This document shows, in pieces, positions 10,263 through 20,635 of a stretch of DNA of 64,000 bases. Both the position numbers and the translations under genes were made by a program. Every line of letters begins with the position of its first letter. Within the stretch, counting starts at the first letter, position 1. The notes under the pieces are model-generated. The model worked only from the letters and a program-made list of their open reading frames with translations, did no database searches and was not told the origin of the DNA. The DNA comes from Akkermansiaceae bacterium (lineage in GTDB: Bacteria; Verrucomicrobiota; Verrucomicrobiia; Verrucomicrobiales; Akkermansiaceae): contig JARWZU010000061.1 in assembly GCA_029866215.1 (NCBI GenBank), forward strand, positions 44,337 through 108,336, written 5' to 3'.

Positions 10263-10847
10263 GTGATCCGTTATTCATTCACTACCATCCTGCTCTTGCT
10301 CGCCTCGTTTGTGGTACAGCAATTCATCCCTGCATTCACCTCGTTCCACCACTCGCGGATTCTACTCGTTCAACTGACTTTCCTCTGCGCCGCCGTCACC
10401 GTCGGCCAACCAACCATGCTCTTGCTCGCCTTCATCGGCGGCTTCTTTTGGGATGCGCACTGCGCTCTTGGCCCTCATGGGGGTGACGCTGAGGTCTACA
10501 CCCAGCAAGTGGAATCCTTACGCTTCGGCTACTCGATCATTCTCTTCGGCGCCATGGGCTTCCTCATGCAGGGAATCCAACCTCTTTTTAAACAAGGAAA
10601 ATGGCAGTTCTCTGCATTTCTCTCGGGCATCGCCATCCTCCTCTATCTCACTGCAGAATACGCCATCATCACCTTCGTTCGCGGCGATTTCACTCTATCG
10701 ACCTCGACGGTGATGCAAATGATCTTCACCGCGCTGCTCACCATGCTGTTCTCGCCCCTCGTATTCTGGTTGCTCTTCCGCATCGCTAAAGCCTGCGATC
10801 ATTCGATCGACCCAGATGCCAGCCGCAGACGACGCCCAATCTACTGA
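10263..10847 (+). CDS. mreD: Rod shape-determining protein MreD (polytopic membrane protein)
   Basis: About 5 TM segments, position between mreC and mrdA; GTG start 10263 inferred. Confidence 0.65.
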   Translation: MIRYSFTTILLLLASFVVQQFIPAFTSFHHSRILLVQLTFLCAAVTVGQPTMLLLAFIGGFFWDAHCALGPHGGDAEVYTQQVESLRFGYSIILFGAMGFLMQGIQPLFKQGKWQFSAFLSGIAILLYLTAEYAIITFVRGDFTLSTSTVMQMIFTALLTMLFSPLVFWLLFRIAKACDHSIDPDASRRRRPIY

Positions 10848-10851
10848 ACTC

Positions 10852-13068
10852 ATGGAACCCAGCTATCGCATCCGAATCTACCTCCTAACAGCACTCGTGC
10901 TGATAGGATTCGGAGCGTTGTTGACGCGTCTCTACGATTATCAAATCGAGCGCCGTGAGGAGTTTCTCCAACAAGTTCCGGGAAACCACACGGTGACGAT
11001 TCGAGAACCCGGCATCCGCGGCGAAATTACCGACCGCAATGGTATCGTCCTAGCCCGCAATAAACTCAACTACGAAGTCTCTCTCAACCTTGAGGAAATC
11101 CGCCAAGCATACATCTCACAACATCTCGAAAACCCGACATTGAAACGGGTCGCCCAAAAAAATGGCCTGCCCCGCCAACGCTCAGAAAAAGACATCGTCG
11201 CGATCGTCAACGAAGGCGTCATCGCAAGACTCCGCAAACTCGACCTCGCCAAAAACTACAAGGCCGGCGACCTCCGCGCACATTTCCTCACCCACGGTGG
11301 CCTCATTCCATTCAGCTACCGCCCCGACTTAAACTACTCGGACTTTTCGAAATTTGCAGAACATAACCTAGAACTTCCCGGAGTCTATCTAAGCGTCCGC
11401 CCACAACGGGAATACCCGTACGGTGCTCTTGCAAGCCATGTTTTAGGCTACCTCAAACAGTGGGAGAAGGGCGACGTTCCAGAAAGTGCAACTCACAAAT
11501 TCGACCACTACGTCGGGGAAGAAAAAGGCATCGCCGGAGTCGAAGCGACCATGGATGAAATCCTCCGTGGCCCGGAAGGCCGTAAAAGTATCGTACGAGA
11601 CGAAAAAGGCCGCACGATCCGTCCATCGGACTACACCAAGCCGGGAATCGGCGCGAAACTGCAACTCACCATCGATGCCTACGCGCAATACCTTCTAGAA
11701 AACACCCTACGCCTCGCAGGACGCGCCGCAGGCGTCATCATGGATGTCAACACCGGCGAAGTCCTCGCCATGGCATCAGTACCAGATTATGACCCCAATG
11801 ACTTCATTCCAAGCATCTCGCAAAAAAGTTGGGATGTGTACCGCTCGAACCAACAACTCGCCCCTTTCACGAACCGTGCGATTTCAGAGTTTACGCCCGG
11901 ATCAACCATGAAAATCCCCACCGCGATCGCTGGCGCACTCGCTGGAATGGGCTCCCGCATATATTCGTGTGATGGCTTCGTCACCTACGGAAATAAAAAC
12001 GTCGGATGCTGGATCTGGAACCTCCACAAAGGCCACCACGGCAACCAAAATCTTTCCCAAGCCATCCAACATTCCTGCAACCCCTACTTCAACAAATTAG
12101 CCAACACGATCGGTTGGAAAGCCTTGGTTCACGGATGTGAGTTGGTCCATATCGGTAAGAAAACTGGCATCGAGCTCCCAAAAGAGGATGCGGGGACCTT
12201 GCCCGGAAGCAGCGCTTGGCGCAGCGCAAACCCCACCCTCGTAATGAGCCCAGTACTCAATGCATTTCTTTCGATCGGACAAGGCGATACACTCGCCACC
12301 CCCTTGCAAATCTGCGCAGTCACTGCTTGCCTCGCAAATGGCGGAAAATACTATAAACCTCGTATCGTCAAAAAGGCGACATCACAAGATGGCAAAACCC
12401 TGATCGCCGACACGCCCAAAATCGAGGTCGACCTCACGAAAGCCGGCATCAAACCCGGCGACATCGAACTGATCCGGCATGGAATGTGGATGTCGACCAA
12501 CGAAGAAGGCGGCACCTCAGGCAAGGTCAAAAGCGCTCGCATCTTAGCTGCATCGAAAAGCGGAACCGCACAAACAACTGACAACGGAAAAAAATCAAAC
12601 AACTCGTGGGTCATGAGTTTTTCTCCATACGAAAACCCCAAATACGCTGTTTGCGTCCTCGTGCAAAATGGCGGATCCGGCGGTGGCGTATGCGGACCCT
12701 TGGTGAATCTAATTTATCGCGGTCTTTTCGCACGGGATCAAAATGGCATCACACTCCCCCTCAAGCCGTTGCCCACAGCCTTGGGCAACACCGACCGCAT
12801 CGAAAAAACCATCGACGTCCCCTCCGAGCTGATCGCATCCGTGGAGACGGGCGATGCAGAGGTCATTCCCGACATGCAAAGCATTAACCCACCTCCCGGA
12901 ATCACCACGGAAGAAATCACCGGCGAAACTGGCGACGAGGCCGGCGATGTCACCCCCTCCGGAAAAACCACCCTTTCTCCCAACATCACTCCCACCCCAA
13001 CCATCACCCCCGAGGTGGACGAAGAGGGAATTGTCATACCCAAGGCCATTCCTGTCATTGAACCCTAA
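10852..13068 (+). CDS. mrdA: Penicillin-binding protein 2 (class B transpeptidase) with acidic Pro/Thr-rich C-tail
   Basis: RGEITDRNG, PGSTMK (SxxK), HSCNPYF (SxN), KSGTAQ (KS/TG); follows mreBCD. Confidence 0.92.
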   Translation: MEPSYRIRIYLLTALVLIGFGALLTRLYDYQIERREEFLQQVPGNHTVTIREPGIRGEITDRNGIVLARNKLNYEVSLNLEEIRQAYISQHLENPTLKRVAQKNGLPRQRSEKDIVAIVNEGVIARLRKLDLAKNYKAGDLRAHFLTHGGLIPFSYRPDLNYSDFSKFAEHNLELPGVYLSVRPQREYPYGALASHVLGYLKQWEKGDVPESATHKFDHYVGEEKGIAGVEATMDEILRGPEGRKSIVRDEKGRTIRPSDYTKPGIGAKLQLTIDAYAQYLLENTLRLAGRAAGVIMDVNTGEVLAMASVPDYDPNDFIPSISQKSWDVYRSNQQLAPFTNRAISEFTPGSTMKIPTAIAGALAGMGSRIYSCDGFVTYGNKNVGCWIWNLHKGHHGNQNLSQAIQHSCNPYFNKLANTIGWKALVHGCELVHIGKKTGIELPKEDAGTLPGSSAWRSANPTLVMSPVLNAFLSIGQGDTLATPLQICAVTACLANGGKYYKPRIVKKATSQDGKTLIADTPKIEVDLTKAGIKPGDIELIRHGMWMSTNEEGGTSGKVKSARILAASKSGTAQTTDNGKKSNNSWVMSFSPYENPKYAVCVLVQNGGSGGGVCGPLVNLIYRGLFARDQNGITLPLKPLPTALGNTDRIEKTIDVPSELIASVETGDAEVIPDMQSINPPPGITTEEITGETGDEAGDVTPSGKTTLSPNITPTPTITPEVDEEGIVIPKAIPVIEP

Positions 13069-14935: not shown

Positions 14936-15247
14936 TCACTTCCTAGAATCGCGTACAAACCCAATCAGTCCTTCGACCGTACAGTGCGACTCAACGGAAT
15001 GCCGGAGCGGCAAATCTCCGTGAATTTGGTAAGTGTTTCTCCTTCCTTGACGCTTCCGCACAAGAATCCCCCCCGCCTCTAGCTCCGAAATAATCTTTTG
15101 GACTGCCCGTTCGGTGACACCTACCGCCAAGGCGATGTCACGTAGCCTCATTTCGGCATCCTCAGCAAGGCAGAGAAGCACGTGCGCATGGTTCGTAAAA
15201 AAGGTCCACCCTGCCGCCTCATGGACATCCACTTTGCTGTTACTCAT
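14936..15247 (-). CDS. Small winged-helix (MarR/ArsR-like) transcriptional regulator
   Basis: WTFFTNHAHVL...RLRDIALAVGVTERAVQKIISELE...GRRNTY...PLRH; HTH plus wing; divergent from sbtA. Confidence 0.85.
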   Translation of the reverse strand: MSNSKVDVHEAAGWTFFTNHAHVLLCLAEDAEMRLRDIALAVGVTERAVQKIISELEAGGILVRKRQGRRNTYQIHGDLPLRHSVESHCTVEGLIGFVRDSRK

Positions 15248-15278
15248 TTTTTGGGTTGACGGGCTAATTAAGAACCTG

Positions 15279-15304
15279 AATACACGAATCGCAATTCGTG
15301 TATT
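15279..15304. promoter_or_regulatory. Perfect inverted repeat, candidate operator of the wHTH regulator
   Basis: aatacacgaat-cgca-attcgtgtatt; TTGACG at 15256-15261 lies 17 bp upstream; degenerate copy (14/17) at 15321-15337. Confidence 0.75.
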
Positions 15305-15370
15305 TCAAGTCCACATAGTTAATACCGGACTCGCAATACTGGCAAGCACCACCTGCATCTCATCACGCCA

Positions 15371-16354
15371 ATGGAAACACTGCAATCCCTGTCCAATACC
15401 CTGCTGTCCCCGATGGTCCTCGCCTTCGCACTGGGTCTTTTCGCTACCCTCATAAAAAGTGACCTGAAGTTTCCAGATCAACTAGGTTCTGCACTCACGA
15501 TCTACTTGCTTTTTGCCATCGGCCTCAAGGGCGGCATGAAGCTCCATGGCATGAGCATTTCCGTCGTAGGGGTCCCTTTGCTCTGCGCAATCATGCTCAG
15601 TTGCATCATCCCAATTTGGTGTTTCTACATACTGAAAGCCTTTGTACGTCTCAACGCAACCAATGCCGGAGCAATCGCCGCACACTATGGCTCTGTGTCA
15701 GCAGTCACCTTCAGTGCCGTACTCGCATTTTTAGAAAATGGTAAAGTCGAGTTCGAGGGTTATGCCCCAGCCCTCCTCGCAGTCATGGAGGCCCCATCGA
15801 TAATCGTGGCGGTGTACCTCGCCATGCGCACCATCAACACCGCCGAAAATACATCACGAGGAAATTTCAAGCGCCTGTTACACGATTTAATCACCGGTAA
15901 AGGTATCGTCCTGCTCCTTGGAGGACTCGCCATCGGATTATTGTGCGGCCATGAAGGGTTCAGCCAAGTTGCTCCCCTATTTGATTCCCCTTTCAAAGGT
16001 GTCCTAACCTTATTTCTGCTTGAAGTCGGCCTCGTCACCGGCAGACGCGTTAGAGATTTAAGAGCAGCTGGGTTCCGACTCGTTGCCTTCGCATTGATCA
16101 TGCCACTGCTGCATGGGCTCTTAGGTGCCCTCATTGGCAAATGGTGTGGTCTCAGCCTAGGTGGTGCCACAATCCTCGCGACCCTAGCAGCAAGCGCATC
16201 CTACATCGCCGCGCCTGCTGCCGTAAGAATCGCGCTGCCTCAAGCAAGCCCAGCCCTCTACCTGACCTCTTCACTTGCGATCACATTTCCATTCAATATC
16301 GTATTCGGAATTCCAATCTATCATACCTTCGCGAGATACCTTTTCGACCTTTGA
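15371..16354 (+). CDS. sbtA: Sodium-dependent bicarbonate transporter family permease (SbtA/DUF897)
   Basis: YLLFAIGLKGG, AAHYGSVSAVTF, SASYIAAPAA, SLAITFPFNI motifs; about 10 TM. Confidence 0.88.
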   Translation: METLQSLSNTLLSPMVLAFALGLFATLIKSDLKFPDQLGSALTIYLLFAIGLKGGMKLHGMSISVVGVPLLCAIMLSCIIPIWCFYILKAFVRLNATNAGAIAAHYGSVSAVTFSAVLAFLENGKVEFEGYAPALLAVMEAPSIIVAVYLAMRTINTAENTSRGNFKRLLHDLITGKGIVLLLGGLAIGLLCGHEGFSQVAPLFDSPFKGVLTLFLLEVGLVTGRRVRDLRAAGFRLVAFALIMPLLHGLLGALIGKWCGLSLGGATILATLAASASYIAAPAAVRIALPQASPALYLTSSLAITFPFNIVFGIPIYHTFARYLFDL

Positions 16355-16437
16355 CACAACGCACGTTCAATTCGATGGCCGCATGAATCCGCTGGTTTAT
16401 TTTTTCAAAAATTTAAACATTCTTTAATTTAAAAAAT

Positions 16438-17201: not shown

Positions 17202-18212
17202 TTGATGTGCTATCCACATAGCGAAATCATGAGTTCCCCTCCTCAATCTTCGATTGGGATATTTTCGCGTGGTTTACGCATTGATGAACGATCGAATGAT
17301 CCATATCAAGTGAGCAAGCACGCTCCCTATTGGGAAATTGTGCAGGATCTCCTGAGGCCCGGTCCATTCTGCGGTCGAGTGAAGGTAGTTCATACGGAAT
17401 CGATACAACTGATCTTATTCGAGCGATCTAACAGCACTCGAGTCTCCGCATCTGGTCCAAAGAACTGCTTCCTTGTCTCTTTTTCCATAGATTCCAATGA
17501 TCAAACTTTCTATCAGGGTTCTCAAATGAGGATTGGACAAATCGCAATCACCGACCCCGCTGAGTGTATCGAATCATTACACCTAGGGAGTTCGCAGATT
17601 ATAACCATCGCGATACATGAAACCCTTGCCCAGTCCATTGCGCACGCACACGGATACGATTCTTTCCGCAGTTTCGTTCCTCGAGAGCATCTTTTGATTC
17701 AATCAGTCAACCATCTGAACCTAATGAAACAAGCAATCACAGAGCACCTTGCCGATCACCTTGAACGTCGCACACCTGAAAGTTCCAATGCCGTAACGGC
17801 CTCTCTAGCATGCGACATTATCGAATCTATTTTTTCTGCATCCGTCCATGGACCAGTCGCAGGCTGCTCTCGCAAACACGCTCGTGTTGCCGAGGAGTAT
17901 TTAATGCATCACCCACATGAGCCACTTGATTTGATTCGGATTTGTGAGCAGGTGGGTATTTCCGCCCGGTGCCTTCAAATCAGCTTCTTGAGATCCTTCG
18001 GTATTTCTATGAAAGCCTACACGCATGCGTTGCGCTTCAATGGAGTACGCCGCGATCTCATTGCTGCCTGCCCTGCGGAACAGAGTGTCAAAGCCATCGC
18101 CCGACACTGGGGATTTTGTCACATGGGCAGATTTTCCATCAACTATCGGCGTTGGTTCGGCGAATGTCCGATCCAGACGCTTAGACGCCCCCACGGGGTG
18201 GAAATCGTGTAA
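17202..18212 (+). CDS. AraC-family (EutR-like) transcriptional regulator
   Basis: C-terminal double HTH: ICEQVGISARCLQISF...LRFNGVRRDL...IARHWGFCHMGRFSINYRRWFGECP; start may be ATG 17205 or 17229. Confidence 0.88.
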   Translation: MMCYPHSEIMSSPPQSSIGIFSRGLRIDERSNDPYQVSKHAPYWEIVQDLLRPGPFCGRVKVVHTESIQLILFERSNSTRVSASGPKNCFLVSFSIDSNDQTFYQGSQMRIGQIAITDPAECIESLHLGSSQIITIAIHETLAQSIAHAHGYDSFRSFVPREHLLIQSVNHLNLMKQAITEHLADHLERRTPESSNAVTASLACDIIESIFSASVHGPVAGCSRKHARVAEEYLMHHPHEPLDLIRICEQVGISARCLQISFLRSFGISMKAYTHALRFNGVRRDLIAACPAEQSVKAIARHWGFCHMGRFSINYRRWFGECPIQTLRRPHGVEIV

Positions 18213-18310
18213 AATCTGAGACTAAATCGGTTTCTCGGCTTGCTTTGAAATTGCTCGGCATGTTTCCTCCGTTGGGACTTAGGATCCCTGCAATTCCAAA
18301 CTTTTTCACC

Positions 18311-19714
18311 ATGTCACGTAAGACCAAAATCATCATCACTCTAGGGCCCGCAACCGAATCCGAGGAAATGATCGGAAGACTGATCGACGCGGGGACAAAT
18401 GTCTTCCGGTTGAACATGAGTCACGCTAAGCACGAGTGGGCTGCCGAAATGACCAAACGGGTTCGCCGCCAGTCTGATGCGCGTGGTGCGCACATTGCTG
18501 TCTTATTTGATCTAACCGGCCCCTCCATTCGGACGGGCGACTTGGAAAAACCCTACAATTTAGTCGAAGGAGATGTCGTTGAATTTCGCAAGGAAGGATC
18601 TGACCCCACCGTTCCACTTTCAACCACCGTAAACTATGACGGACTCATGGGCGACGTCACCGCTGGAAATACCCTAGTGGTCGATAATGGGGCCATGCTC
18701 ATGCGCATCGACGTAGTAGAGTCCGACCGCATTCTTTGCTGCGTAAGGACTCCCGGCAGCATGGGCTCACGCCGTCATATCAATCTTCCAGGGGTCCGCC
18801 TCAACCTCCCTGCTCTAACCGACAAGGATCACAAAGACCTTTCACTCGCAGTTGAATGCCGAGCGGACTACATCGCGGGCTCGTTTGTCCGTGACTCCGC
18901 GCACGTCCGCGAGCTCCGCGAAGCCATGCAGCAGCTTGAGGGTGAGGCACAAATCGTTGCCAAGGTCGAAGATCAGGAAGCAATCCGCAACATAGACGCC
19001 ATCATCCATGAGGCCGATGTGATCATGGTTGCTCGTGGCGACCTAGGAACTGAGGTTGAATTTGAGGAACTTCCGATCCTGCAGCGCCGCATTGTCAAGC
19101 GCTGCCATGAATTGGGAACTCGCGTGATTGTCGCCACTCAGTTATTAGAGTCGATGATCACCAACCCCACCCCCACCCGTGCTGAGGTGACGGACGTGAT
19201 GAATGCCGCTTATGAGGAGGCCGACTGCTTGATGCTTTCTGGCGAAACATCGGTAGGCCGTTACCCCGAGCGTTGCGTCGATGCGCTGGTCCGTATTGCA
19301 TCGCGCATCGAGCGCTCTGGTGGCCACGGCTTCGGTCAAAATGCCTTGCTTCGTGACGAGCGCCAGAAGACGGCTAGAGCTGCAGTCACCCTAGCAGATT
19401 CACTGCCAGATGCGCGGCTAGTCGTGCTGACTCGTCGTGGTGTCCTTGCAAACCATGTGGCTATGCTCCGGCCAAGGACCTCGGGATTTTACGCATTTAC
19501 CCCTACCGAAAAAGTTTGCTGCAAGCTTTCACTCACTCGGAGCGTGCGCGCATTCAAGTTACCATTCGCAACGAACATTGAGGAGACCATCCAACGTGTG
19601 AGCGAATTACTGATGAAGGAAAACCTCGTCCGCCAAGGCACCCCATTGGTGATCGTCTCCGACATCCTATCCGACCACTTCGCAGCCAATTCGATTTTGC
19701 TTCACCACGCGTGA
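18311..19714 (+). CDS. pyk: Pyruvate kinase
   Basis: RKTKIIITLGP, FRLNMSH, MVARGDLG, ATQLLESM, MLSGET; start moved to ATG 18311. Confidence 0.96.
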   Translation: MSRKTKIIITLGPATESEEMIGRLIDAGTNVFRLNMSHAKHEWAAEMTKRVRRQSDARGAHIAVLFDLTGPSIRTGDLEKPYNLVEGDVVEFRKEGSDPTVPLSTTVNYDGLMGDVTAGNTLVVDNGAMLMRIDVVESDRILCCVRTPGSMGSRRHINLPGVRLNLPALTDKDHKDLSLAVECRADYIAGSFVRDSAHVRELREAMQQLEGEAQIVAKVEDQEAIRNIDAIIHEADVIMVARGDLGTEVEFEELPILQRRIVKRCHELGTRVIVATQLLESMITNPTPTRAEVTDVMNAAYEEADCLMLSGETSVGRYPERCVDALVRIASRIERSGGHGFGQNALLRDERQKTARAAVTLADSLPDARLVVLTRRGVLANHVAMLRPRTSGFYAFTPTEKVCCKLSLTRSVRAFKLPFATNIEETIQRVSELLMKENLVRQGTPLVIVSDILSDHFAANSILLHHA

Positions 19715-19771: not shown

Positions 19772-20635
19772 TTATCCCCCAATGGGGTGCCATGTTGTCT
19801 TGAGCTCAAGGTGATCTCTAATCTCGTATAGCCCTTGCGCACTTTCAGAATACCAATCCATCGGATCTTCCACCGCAATCAATTTGAGACGCTTGACACT
19901 ATCGGCCGCACCATTCTGGAGTGCTTGGCGCTCAACAAGGTCGGCAACCGCCGTGACTCCGCGCAAATGTGCATGACTCGCGAACGTCGGGATCAATTCA
20001 TCACGCTGCCCCGTGAGTAGATTCACCACACCGCCTGGCAAGTCGCTGGTCGCCAGCATTTCGCCTAACAGAATTGCTGGGTACGGTTGTTTGTTCGAAG
20101 CAAGAGTGACCACCGAATTTCCGCCCGTGATGGCAGGCAACACCAACGAAACTAGTCCTAACAGCGGCACGTCATCAGGCGCAATGATGCCAATGATTCC
20201 CATCGGTTCCGTGACGGTGAAATTGAAGTGGGACGATGCGACAGGGTTCACGCTGCCGAGTAGCGCCGGAAATTTGTCGGTCCATCCGGCATAGTGGACG
20301 ATGCGGTCGATACTCGCAACCACCTCACGGTTGGCTTTGGCACGCGATCCTCCGCCGATCAGAATCGCCTCGGTCATTTCAGGAGTCCTAGCCTCTAACA
20401 TCTCGGCAAGCCGATAAAGAATCTGACCGCGGTTATAGGCACTTCTACCCGCCCAGTTTGGCCCAGCCTTCGCGGCAGCTTCCACCGCGTTCCGCAGATC
20501 CTTGCGGGTGCAAAGCGGGATATTCGCAAAAAATGTACCCTTCGCATCGCAAAGCGGAGCCACTCGCCCGCCCTCAGAGCGGATAAAGCTGCCGCCCACG
20601 TAGCACTTGGGAGTTTTGGTGATATGAAGTCGCAT
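19772..20635 (-). CDS. Short aldehyde dehydrogenase-family protein (NAD-binding domain only)
   Basis: 287 aa; RGQILYRLAEML, EPMGIIG, PGGVVNLLTG present; ELGGK and catalytic GQxC segment absent. Confidence 0.8.
   Translation of the reverse strand: MRLHITKTPKCYVGGSFIRSEGGRVAPLCDAKGTFFANIPLCTRKDLRNAVEAAAKAGPNWAGRSAYNRGQILYRLAEMLEARTPEMTEAILIGGGSRAKANREVVASIDRIVHYAGWTDKFPALLGSVNPVASSHFNFTVTEPMGIIGIIAPDDVPLLGLVSLVLPAITGGNSVVTLASNKQPYPAILLGEMLATSDLPGGVVNLLTGQRDELIPTFASHAHLRGVTAVADLVERQALQNGAADSVKRLKLIAVEDPMDWYSESAQGLYEIRDHLELKTTWHPIGG

What the first reader, a model, noticed from the sequence alone, without database searches (positions are those of the whole stretch)
14936..16354. Divergent wHTH regulator-palindromic operator-SbtA module lacking SbtB: candidate inorganic-carbon-responsive switch
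Seen: a 103-aa wHTH gene and an SbtA/DUF897 permease are divergent across 123 bp. The spacer holds a perfect 11-4-11 inverted repeat (15279-15304) exactly where a -10 would fall after TTGACG (15256). A 14/17 degenerate copy lies 42 bp (4 helical turns) downstream at 15321-15337. No sbtB follows sbtA. Known: SbtA is an Na+/HCO3- symporter usually controlled by the PII-like SbtB. Inference: in this heterotroph, control may instead be transcriptional, via a repressor with His/Cys clusters (NHAHVLLC, RHSVESHC) that could sense CO2/HCO3-, pH or metal.
Basis: partly seen in the sequence, partly recalled or inferred. Interest (0 to 1): 0.72.

Follow-up and report, generated by a model that had tools for sequence, protein, structure and literature searches.

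The report
Conserved repressor switch for bicarbonate-supply genes
A small DNA-binding protein and the palindrome it most likely binds sit between their own gene and a bicarbonate-transporter-like gene, and the same pair recurs across many bacterial phyla next to genes that import, make or use CO2/bicarbonate, so it looks like an undescribed inorganic-carbon control switch of non-photosynthetic bacteria.

Summary
A 103-aa winged-helix gene (14936-15247, minus) and a 327-aa Sbt_1/SbtA-like permease gene (15371-16354, plus) diverge across 123 bp. The spacer carries a perfect 11-4-11 inverted repeat (15279-15304).

The regulator belongs to a large family with no dedicated Pfam or NCBIfam model (about 2,800 clusters at 50% identity). 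Its operator, ATACRCGAA-N6-TTCGYGTAT, is conserved across phyla. In 69 loci not used to build the motif, the best match in about 8 kb lay within 250 bp upstream of the regulator in 46 (2.4 expected).

In 51 of 80 genomic loci the regulator lies within 4 kb of SbtA, DabAB, beta-carbonic anhydrase, a PII/SbtB-like gene, PurE-PurK or isocitrate dehydrogenase. The only shared theme is CO2/bicarbonate.

The operator abuts or overlaps the -10/+1 of the target promoter, which points to an autoregulated repressor.

- "Instead of SbtB" fails, because close relatives carry both the regulator and sbtB.
- The cysteines are not conserved across the family.
- The 14/17 second copy scores poorly as a binding site.

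The effector is unknown. I found no paper on this regulator. I rate it a new variant of a known kind, with fairly high interest.

The parts
14936..15247 (-). Regulator gene, 103 aa. Minimal winged helix-turn-helix protein, distantly ArsR/SmtB-like. Family signature: W14, N19, H20, H22, R47, R69, Y73, R82, H83, E86.
   Evidence: ORF. Only generic HTH Pfam hits: HTH_24 at 24.4 bits just passes its own cut-off of 21.9, the others are below cut-off; NCBIfam HTH_metalloreg 25.7 vs cut-off 55. AF2 model pLDDT 78 with three helices, a wing and a C-terminal helix. Best structural matches are AspA, YgaV and SmtB. Conservation.
15371..16354 (+). SbtA-like permease gene, 327 aa, Sbt_1 family. Lacks the roughly 45-residue cytoplasmic loop of Synechocystis SbtA.
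   Evidence: PF05982, E 5e-115. Matches Synechocystis SbtA (7cye) in two stretches, E 4.6e-32, with chain residues 164-212 unmatched. Crossover motifs YGSVS and AxSxSY invariant or nearly so in 37 regulator-linked homologues. Short metatranscriptome contigs inside the gene.
15279..15304 (.). Core operator: perfect 11-4-11 inverted repeat matching the family consensus ATACRCGAA-N6-TTCGYGTAT.
15272..15325 (.). Extended operator: outer half-site cores phased 14 nt from the inner ones, G15272 (position -6), T15310-C15311 (+32/+33) and C15325 (+47).
   Evidence: G at -6 in 33/42 and 28/29 loci, C at +33 in 38/42 and 28/29, C at +47 in 33/42 and 23/29, in two separately collected sets. The window bases were read.
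15256..15284 (+). Predicted sbtA promoter: -35 TTGACG (15256-15261), 17-nt spacer, weak -10 AATACA (15279-15284) inside the left arm of the operator.
   Evidence: GGTTGAC is conserved in 8 of 9 Verrucomicrobial spacers. Across phyla the best target-directed sigma-70-like promoter places its -10 at -6 to +4 relative to the operator start in 19 of 42 loci. The strict consensus scan did not call it.
15317..15345 (-). Predicted regulator promoter on the minus strand: -35 TTGCCA (plus-strand 15340-15345), 17-nt spacer, -10 TTAACT (plus-strand 15317-15322). It would start the regulator mRNA just before the operator.
   Evidence: The same CTTGM-N17-TTTAAT-like geometry can be read in all 9 aligned Verrucomicrobial spacers; the automatic scan picked the matching promoter in 7 of the 8 relatives, not in L003 or the window. 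Inference from consensus only.
15321..15337 (.). It lies in the spacer of the predicted regulator promoter and is at best a weak auxiliary half-site.
   Evidence: 82% copy. Half-site matrix score below 5 bits in the window, and at or above 5 bits at the same offset in only 2 of 8 relatives. Its 42-nt offset equals 3 x 14, in phase with the outer half-site array.

Best explanation
The 103-aa protein is an autoregulated winged-helix repressor of an uncharacterised, widespread family. It most likely binds as a dimer to the palindrome 15279-15304, with further copies on weak outer half-sites phased 14 nt away.

The operator lies where two face-to-face promoters cross, one for sbtA and one for the regulator gene. 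Bound protein would therefore shut off both.

Across phyla the same regulator-operator pair controls genes that import bicarbonate (SbtA-like permease with or without PII/SbtB), hydrate CO2 (DabAB, beta-carbonic anhydrase), release CO2 (isocitrate dehydrogenase) or consume bicarbonate (PurK-PurE). The module is therefore most likely a low-inorganic-carbon switch of heterotrophic bacteria: repression when CO2/bicarbonate is sufficient, release when it is short.

Shown here: the anatomy, operator conservation, gene linkage and operator position relative to promoter-like elements.
Inferred: DNA binding by this protein, repression rather than activation, and the signal.

My preferred signal is bicarbonate/CO2 itself acting as co-repressor at the invariant W14/N19/H20/H22-R82/H83/E86 patch. 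That step is the weakest.
For: 1. Regulator and operator travel together. A matrix built from 12 Verrucomicrobial sites put the best hit of the whole locus within 250 bp upstream of the regulator in 46 of 69 untrained loci (2.4 expected, p about 3e-50). Hits of 14 bits or more numbered 31 in 17 kb of upstream DNA against 5 in 499 kb elsewhere.
2. Reverse test. Of 120 metagenome stretches picked only by the exact operator pattern, 42 carry a regulator homologue within 4 kb of the site, in nearly all rows directly beside it.
3. Gene linkage in 80 genome loci: SbtA 23, isocitrate dehydrogenase 19, PurE 12, PurK 11, beta-carbonic anhydrase 6, PII 6 (10 with a Verrucomicrobial PII query added), DabA/DabB 4 each; 51 of 80 have at least one.
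4. In the operator-selected set: SbtA 21, PII 12, isocitrate dehydrogenase 11, carbonic anhydrase 10, PurEK 5, DabB 4, DabA 3.
5. Composite operons join these genes under one operator: L178 sbtA-PII-CA-purK-purE, L138 purE-purK-CA-sbtA-PII, L095 purE-purK...dabB-dabA, L041 reg-sbtA-PII-purE-purK.
6. Operator position. The -10 of the best target-directed promoter starts at -6 to +4 relative to the operator in 19 of 42 loci. TTGAC is conserved 17 nt before the operator in Verrucomicrobia.
7. The arms vary independently (A/T 27, G/T 9, A/C 5, G/C 1), as expected of a protein site rather than an RNA hairpin.
8. Fold and recognition elements. The model is a wHTH with invariant recognition-helix and wing residues (T45, E46, R47; G68, R69, N71, Y73).
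Against: - There is no experimental datum: no binding, no expression response to CO2, no transcription start site. Metatranscriptomes gave only 200-nt contigs inside sbtA.
- 29 of 80 loci have no CO2-related neighbour within 4 kb, and their neighbours are heterogeneous.
- The window's own -10 (AATACA) is poor, and the strict promoter scan called nothing in the spacer.
- Only 2 of the 4 residues docked to bicarbonate in Synechocystis SbtA are kept (S114 and S324 equivalents yes; Y140->L and S327->A). The substrate of this permease subfamily is therefore not proven.
- Nothing identifies the effector, and direct bicarbonate sensing is a guess.
- 75 of the 120 pattern hits lack the regulator. These are chance matches or other systems, for example a gut-bacterial tautomerase locus.
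Confidence: 0.6

Rival explanations
1. The regulator senses a purine-pathway intermediate that piles up when bicarbonate is short (AIR or N5-CAIR), not inorganic carbon itself. It would be a substrate-induced purEK repressor to which carbon-uptake genes were recruited.
For: PurE-PurK lie directly under the operator in 11-12 of 80 genome loci and 5 of 120 operator-selected loci. They are fused into single operons with sbtA, carbonic anhydrase or dab genes. That PurK uses bicarbonate is established biochemistry (my own knowledge).
Against: Most loci (SbtA-only, isocitrate dehydrogenase-only, Dab-only, and the window itself) have no purEK nearby. Isocitrate dehydrogenase control by a purine intermediate has no obvious logic. 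No nucleotide-binding domain is present in a 103-aa wHTH.
Confidence: 0.15
2. It is a classical ArsR/SmtB-type metal sensor (for example zinc) that adjusts zinc-dependent CO2-hydrating enzymes and their partners.
For: The nearest solved relatives by sequence are SmtB and CadC (E 5e-4 to 1e-2). SmtB is also among the fold matches. H20, H22, H83 and E86 are conserved and lie in the N-terminal helix and just before the C-terminal helix, roughly where ArsR-family sites lie. That beta-carbonic anhydrase and DabA are zinc enzymes is my own knowledge.
Against: The NCBIfam metalloregulator model scores 25.7 against a cut-off of 55. The cysteines are not conserved. Metal transporters are essentially absent from the neighbourhoods: one cation-efflux gene in L037. 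SbtA, PurEK and isocitrate dehydrogenase, the commonest partners, are not known zinc proteins (my own knowledge).
Confidence: 0.08
3. The permease subfamily carries something other than bicarbonate (another anion, or Na+ linked to pH homeostasis), and the regulator responds to that solute or to pH.
For: Two of four docked bicarbonate-contacting residues differ from Synechocystis SbtA, and the changes are fixed in the subfamily (L/V at 136, A/V at 280, invariant Y278). No transport data for non-cyanobacterial members were found in the searches made.
Against: The same operator serves DabAB, beta-carbonic anhydrase, PurK and isocitrate dehydrogenase, whose only common factor is CO2/bicarbonate. 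sbtA itself is fused in operons with carbonic anhydrase and PII/SbtB-like genes.
Confidence: 0.1
4. The protein is an activator, or has a dual role, and recruits RNA polymerase at low inorganic carbon rather than blocking it.
For: The window's -10 element is weak, as in activator-dependent promoters. Outer half-sites extend over more than 50 bp, which could bend DNA.
Against: In most phyla a good -35/-10 pair directly abuts the operator, so the operator covers the start site. That is a repressor position.
Confidence: 0.07

Closest known systems
ArsR/SmtB family of small winged-helix repressors (SmtB, CadC, YgaV, SqrR)
   Same: Size of about 100 aa. wHTH followed by a C-terminal helix. Palindromic operator overlapping the promoter of an adjacent gene, with autoregulation. 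Weak sequence and fold similarity.
   Different: Below the NCBIfam family cut-off. Lacks the N-terminal helix and the known metal or thiol motifs. Has its own invariant signature (W-x4-NHxH ... RHxxE). Its regulon is CO2/bicarbonate-related, not metal or sulfide detoxification.
Cyanobacterial inorganic-carbon regulators NdhR/CcmR and CmpR (LysR type), which control sbtA/sbtB, ndh-I3 and cmp (my own knowledge; reviewed in PMC8042125, listed but not read)
   Same: Transcriptional control of sbtA and other carbon-uptake genes according to carbon status. NdhR is a repressor released at low inorganic carbon.
   Different: Unrelated protein family: LysR, about 300 aa with an effector domain binding 2-oxoglutarate or 2-phosphoglycolate. 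Found in autotrophs. The family here is a 100-aa wHTH in heterotroph lineages, and its regulon includes PurEK and isocitrate dehydrogenase.
SbtA-SbtB, the Na+/bicarbonate symporter with its PII-like inhibitor in Synechocystis (PMC8352866)
   Same: The permease is a clear Sbt_1 homologue with both crossover motifs. A PII-like gene follows sbtA in 10 of 23 regulator-linked genome loci that hold SbtA; in the operator-selected set 12 loci hold PII and 21 hold SbtA.
   Different: No sbtB in this window. The permease lacks the long cytoplasmic loop (residues 166-212, disordered in the structure). It has L and A in place of Y140 and S327.
TetR/tetA-style divergent gene pair with one operator region serving two overlapping promoters (my own knowledge)
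   Same: A regulator and a transporter gene diverge. One operator sits where the two promoters cross, giving joint control and autoregulation.
   Different: Different protein fold and no shared ancestry implied. This is an analogy of circuit design only.
AspA of plasmid pNOB8, a wHTH centromere-binding protein that binds a palindrome and spreads (PDB 4rs8, 5k5q)
   Same: Best fold match. A central palindrome is flanked by phased weak sites, which suggests several dimers side by side.
   Different: AspA is a plasmid partition protein of archaea. Identity is 16% and there is no functional link. Spreading by the regulator here is only inferred.

Membership tests
Sbt_1 / SbtA Na+-dependent bicarbonate transporter family | Full-length match to Pfam PF05982 and to solved SbtA | tested here: met
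   E 5e-115 over profile positions 1-307 of 308. Synechocystis SbtA 7cye, E 4.6e-32.
Sbt_1 / SbtA Na+-dependent bicarbonate transporter family | Na+ site at the TM4/TM9 crossover and the four residues docked to bicarbonate (S114, Y140, S324, S327; PMC8352866) | tested here: inconclusive
   The crossover motifs are kept (YGSVS; AxSxS). The S114 and S324 equivalents are kept. Y140->L136 and S327->A280. The substitutions are fixed in 37 regulator-linked homologues.
Sbt_1 / SbtA Na+-dependent bicarbonate transporter family | Adjacent PII-like sbtB gene | tested here: not met
   None in the 64-kb window. Present after sbtA in relatives L006 and L007, L152 and L178, and in Alphaproteobacteria.
Sbt_1 / SbtA Na+-dependent bicarbonate transporter family | Bicarbonate transport activity | not testable with these tools
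   Needs an uptake assay or complementation of an E. coli can mutant.
ArsR/SmtB metalloregulators | Score above the family model cut-off | tested here: not met
   NF033788 scores 25.7 bits against a cut-off of 55. PDB profile hits to SmtB reach only E 5e-4.
ArsR/SmtB metalloregulators | Winged helix-turn-helix fold with a C-terminal dimerisation helix | tested here: met
   AF2 model: H19-29, H35-42, H46-59, two-strand wing, H91-101, pLDDT 78. Foldseek hits YgaV, SmtB, CadC and SqrR. The dimer itself was not modelled.
ArsR/SmtB metalloregulators | Known metal-site motifs (alpha3 Cys pair; alpha5 D-x-H-x10-H-x2-E) | tested here: not met
   The SmtB alignment ends at the wing. The cysteines are not conserved (C26 69%, C89 36%). 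A different His/Glu/Arg signature is conserved. The motif definitions come from my own knowledge.
MarR family | Pfam MarR/MarR_2 above the gathering score | tested here: not met
   19.6 and 20.0 bits against cut-offs of 24.6 and 27. The protein is about 40 aa shorter than MarR proteins (my own knowledge).
The regulator family defined here (wHTH with W-x4-NHxH and RHxxE, operator ATACRCGAA-N6-TTCGYGTAT) | Signature residues, an operator within 250 bp upstream, and a CO2/bicarbonate-related neighbour | tested here: met
   The window protein has every signature residue. The operator scores 34.6 bits, with its centre about 44 bp upstream of the regulator ATG. SbtA is the divergent neighbour.

The most novel reading that the evidence does not exclude
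The family is a direct bicarbonate- or CO2-sensing transcription factor. The invariant Trp/Asn/His/His-Arg/His/Glu patch of a 100-aa winged-helix protein would bind bicarbonate (or be modified by CO2) and hold the protein on DNA. That would give heterotrophic bacteria of at least eight phyla a dedicated inorganic-carbon regulator that coordinates uptake (SbtA, DabAB), hydration (carbonic anhydrase), internal CO2 release (isocitrate dehydrogenase) and the bicarbonate-dependent step of purine synthesis (PurK).
Probability: 0.3. Interest if true: 0.85.

Novelty: new variant of a known kind. Interest (0 to 1): 0.7.

Why it matters
How non-photosynthetic bacteria notice and respond to CO2/bicarbonate shortage is poorly understood. 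To my knowledge, the dedicated carbon-status regulators described so far are LysR proteins of autotrophs.

This work gives a compact protein, a defined 24-bp core operator and a predicted regulon. That regulon links carbon-uptake systems with PurK and isocitrate dehydrogenase across many phyla, including common freshwater, soil and gut-associated lineages.

The question becomes directly testable with a gel shift and a CO2 shift. The regulon also suggests why heterotrophs keep SbtA- and DAB-type systems at all: to feed bicarbonate-dependent biosynthesis. If the sensor is confirmed, the pair could serve as a small CO2/bicarbonate-responsive genetic switch.

Tried and rejected
- **RNA hairpin reading of the palindrome.** Rejected. 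The arms are conserved in sequence across phyla and vary independently, without compensatory changes.
- **The 14/17 copy as a second full operator.** No partner arm exists. Half-site scores are below 5 bits in the window and inconsistent in relatives.
- **Transcription start sites from public RNA data.** Only two metatranscriptome contigs of about 200 nt were found, both inside sbtA. No RNA runs were found for the Akkermansia-labelled relative L009.
- **Intrinsic terminator after sbtA.** None called, and folding is no better than shuffles (z 0.94).
- **Strict sigma-70 scan of the spacer.** Nothing called. The promoter assignments rest on comparative alignment.
- **Literature.** Six of the seven full-text searches (SbtA/DabA with regulator, ArsR, winged helix, purK, repressor, CO2-responsive) found no paper on this regulator; the seventh looked for the SbtA structure paper.
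- **The 75 operator-pattern hits without a regulator.** One recurrent group is a gut-metagenome locus with a tautomerase gene. The rest show no common neighbour. I treated them as other systems or chance.
- **The 29 genome loci without CO2-related neighbours.** No dominant family; single cases of PEPCK, a SulP permease and a Proton_antipo_M protein.
Full report
**1. The observation**

The window holds a 103-aa ORF on the minus strand (14936-15247) and a 327-aa ORF on the plus strand (15371-16354), separated by 123 bp. The larger protein is a full-length member of Pfam Sbt_1 (PF05982, E 5e-115). The smaller one gives only generic helix-turn-helix matches; HTH_24 just passes its own cut-off, and the MarR, HTH_29, TrmB and NCBIfam ArsR/SmtB models score below theirs.

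The spacer contains a perfect inverted repeat, AATACACGAAT (15279-15289) and ATTCGTGTATT (15294-15304). It also contains a 14/17 direct copy at 15321-15337, and TTGACG at 15256-15261.

The gene after sbtA is a convergent SYLF/BPSL1445-type lipoprotein gene. No PII-like, carbonic anhydrase, Dab, PurEK or isocitrate dehydrogenase gene occurs anywhere in the 64 kb.

A perfect repeat with 11-nt arms is rare here. It appeared in 7 of 3,000 random 123-nt stretches of the window, and by my arithmetic about 4-5 of those are expected to overlap this same site.

**2. The regulator family**

The protein has hundreds of close relatives (62-87% identity) in Verrucomicrobiota. The sources name them only as generic winged-helix, ArsR or MarR proteins.

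A profile search of 1.84 billion representative proteins found 2,816 clusters at E <= 1e-10. A scan of one genome per species found more than 594 loci in Verrucomicrobiota, Planctomycetota, Myxococcota, Acidobacteriota, Armatimonadota, Abditibacteriota, Alpha- and Gammaproteobacteria, Actinomycetota and others.

Neither Pfam nor NCBIfam has a dedicated model for the family.

The AlphaFold model (pLDDT 78) shows:
- a disordered N-terminus (residues 1-14);
- three helices, a two-strand wing and a C-terminal helix.

The nearest solved structures are small winged-helix proteins: AspA, YgaV, SmtB, CadC and SqrR.

In 144 diverse representatives the following residues are at 91-100%: W14, N19, H20, H22, V23, R36, T45, E46, R47, G68, R69, N71, Y73, R82, H83 and E86. 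C26 (69%), H88 (72%) and C89 (36%) are not conserved to that degree.

**3. The operator is conserved with the regulator**

In nine Verrucomicrobial spacers the palindrome, a GGTTGAC box next to the regulator start codon, an AT-rich box and a GCAAGC box are aligned and conserved.

I built a matrix from 12 Verrucomicrobial sites, with the central six positions ignored, and applied it to 69 loci from other lineages.
- The best hit of the whole roughly 8-kb locus fell within 250 bp upstream of the regulator in 46 loci, against 2.4 expected (p about 3e-50).
- Hits of 14 bits or more numbered 31 in 17 kb of upstream DNA and 5 in 499 kb elsewhere.

The consensus is ATACRCGAA-N6-TTCGYGTAT.

Of these, 42 carry a regulator homologue within 4 kb of the site, in nearly all rows directly beside it.

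The two variable positions of the arms do not co-vary (A/T 27, G/T 9, A/C 5, G/C 1). The constraint is therefore on a protein-binding site, not on an RNA hairpin.

Within the window this is the only site: 34.6 bits, next best 7.7.

**4. What the regulator sits next to**

Counts within 4 kb in the 80 genome loci, with identities confirmed by Pfam:

| Neighbour | Loci |
|---|---|
| SbtA-like permease (nearly always divergent) | 23 |
| Isocitrate dehydrogenase (Iso_dh plus bacterial C-terminal domain) | 19 |
| PurE | 12 |
| PurK | 11 |
| Beta-carbonic anhydrase | 6 |
| PII-like protein (with a Verrucomicrobial PII query added) | 10 |
| DabA / DabB | 4 each |

- 51 of the 80 loci have at least one of these neighbours.
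- The remaining 29 loci have heterogeneous neighbours. They include single cases of PEPCK, a SulP permease and a Proton_antipo_M (DabB-like) protein.

In the operator-selected metagenome set the counts are SbtA 21, PII 12, isocitrate dehydrogenase 11, carbonic anhydrase 10, PurEK 5, DabB 4 and DabA 3.

Several operons combine these genes under one operator:
- L178: sbtA-PII-CA-purK-purE
- L138: purE-purK-CA-sbtA-PII
- L095: purE-purK followed by dabB-dabA
- L041: reg-sbtA-PII-purE-purK

These proteins share only CO2/bicarbonate. They import it, hydrate it, release it, or (PurK) consume it. Their functions are established biochemistry, stated here from my own knowledge.

**5. SbtB**

A PII-family gene follows sbtA in the close relatives L006 and L007, in L152 and L178, and in Alphaproteobacteria. 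A beta-carbonic anhydrase gene follows it in L002, L004 and L068.

The regulator therefore coexists with SbtB. The idea that transcriptional control replaces the missing SbtB is not supported. The window simply represents a variant of the locus with sbtA alone.

**6. Promoter geometry and mechanism**

When all strong sites are anchored on the operator, the best sigma-70-like promoter pointing at the target gene has its -10 hexamer starting between -6 and +4 relative to the first operator base in 19 of 42 loci. The other 23 are scattered over about 100 nt.

Typical examples read TTGACA-N17-TAAATA immediately followed by AATACACGAA. The operator thus covers the -10/+1 region, which is a repressor position.

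In the window the equivalent is TTGACG (15256-15261), 17 nt, then AATACA (15279-15284). That is a weak -10, and the strict scan did not call it.

On the other strand, all nine Verrucomicrobial spacers can be read as CTTGM-N17-TTTAAT-like; the automatic scan picked the matching promoter in 7 of the 8 relatives, not in L003 or the window. In the window this is TTGCCA (plus-strand 15340-15345) and TTAACT (15317-15322). It would start the regulator transcript just before the operator.

The two promoters therefore face each other and cross at the palindrome, so one bound protein would control both genes, with autoregulation. This is inferred from consensus elements only.

**7. An extended operator**

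Outside the core, three positions are conserved in both sets of sites, one found through the regulator and one through the core pattern:

| Position | Genome set | Metagenome set |
|---|---|---|
| G at -6 | 33/42 | 28/29 |
| T at +32 | 31/42 | 21/29 |
| C at +33 | 38/42 | 28/29 |
| C at +47 | 33/42 | 23/29 |

These are cores of further half-sites, phased 14 nt from the inner ones and oriented like their inner neighbours. The window has all three (G15272, C15311, C15325).

This suggests that several dimers bind side by side. That may be why the best fold match is AspA, a protein that spreads from a palindrome. This is inference.

However, it scores below 5 bits with a half-site matrix, and the same offset reaches 5 bits in only 2 of 8 relatives. 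It also coincides with the spacer of the predicted regulator promoter. I treat it as at most a weak auxiliary site.

**8. The permease**

It aligns with Synechocystis SbtA in two blocks and lacks chain residues 164-212. That is the cytoplasmic loop which is disordered in the cryo-EM structure (PMC8352866).

- Of the residues reported there to contact docked bicarbonate, the S114 and S324 equivalents are kept (S110, S277). Y140 and S327 are replaced (L136, A280).
- The backbone Na+ site region is kept.
- In 37 regulator-linked homologues the motifs YGSVS and S-x-S-Y are invariant or nearly so, and the two substitutions are fixed.

The protein is a clear family member of a distinct subfamily. 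Its substrate is inferred from context, not shown.

**9. The signal**

Nothing here identifies the effector. The regulon fits a low-inorganic-carbon response:
- more uptake and hydration;
- more internal CO2 from isocitrate dehydrogenase;
- more PurK/PurE to compensate for scarce substrate.

I prefer direct sensing of bicarbonate/CO2 at the invariant W/N/H/H-R/H/E patch. A pathway intermediate such as AIR, a metal, or pH/another anion remain open. They are listed as rivals with the experiments that would separate them.

**10. Novelty**

Six full-text searches combining SbtA, DabA, bicarbonate transporter, purK, carbonic anhydrase, ArsR, winged helix, repressor and CO2-responsive returned no paper on this regulator. 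Curated family libraries have no model for it.

The design itself is familiar: a small winged-helix repressor with a palindromic operator between divergent genes. The family, its operator and its CO2/bicarbonate regulon in heterotrophs appear undescribed. I rate it a new variant of a known kind, with interest 0.7.

The main uncertainty is that there is no experimental evidence for binding, for direction of control, or for the signal.

Noticed in passing
L012, L015, L035, L038, L039, L048, L057, L059, L069, L079; L094, L105, L118, L142, L148, L155, L194: An isocitrate dehydrogenase of about 480-550 aa (Iso_dh plus the bacterial C-terminal domain PF18324) is the second most common gene under this operator, mainly in Planctomycetota, Armatimonadota and Acidobacteriota. 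Why a TCA-cycle enzyme shares a regulator with bicarbonate uptake is unexplained. Internal CO2 supply is my guess.
   Followed up: partly
L178, L138, L095, L041, L025, L047: purE-purK are fused into single operons with sbtA, a PII-like gene, beta-carbonic anhydrase or dabBA. This suggests that bicarbonate supply to PurK is a main reason heterotrophs keep these uptake systems.
   Followed up: partly
L113, L120, L131, L135, L141, L150, L153, L164, L176, L190, L196 (many from human-gut metagenomes): The same 24-bp pattern recurs in a locus without the regulator, between a tautomerase-domain gene and a 177-aa protein with no Pfam hit that sits exactly 129 bp from the site. This may be an unrelated regulator with a similar operator, or a very distant relative.
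   Followed up: partly
window 17202-18212 (+) and 18245-19714 (+): An AraC/EutR-like regulator (HTH_18; NCBIfam EutR 83 bits, below cut-off) lies directly upstream of a pyruvate kinase gene. A truncated-looking aldehyde dehydrogenase ORF (287 aa, covering only the first half of the Pfam model) follows at 19772-20635 (-).
   Followed up: no
window 16355-16437: The 83-bp gap between the convergent sbtA and SYLF-lipoprotein genes is very AT-rich (runs such as TTTATTTTTTCAAAAATTTAAA). It has no terminator hairpin better than shuffled sequence.
   Followed up: partly
window 10816-13068 (+): The PBP2-type transpeptidase has a C-terminal tail of about 100 aa, rich in Pro, Thr, Glu and Ile, beyond the transpeptidase domain (Pfam match ends at residue 633 of 750).
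   Followed up: no
L010:2169-2525 (-): A PemK/MazF-type toxin gene lies just beyond sbtA in one relative. It is probably unrelated to the module.
   Followed up: no
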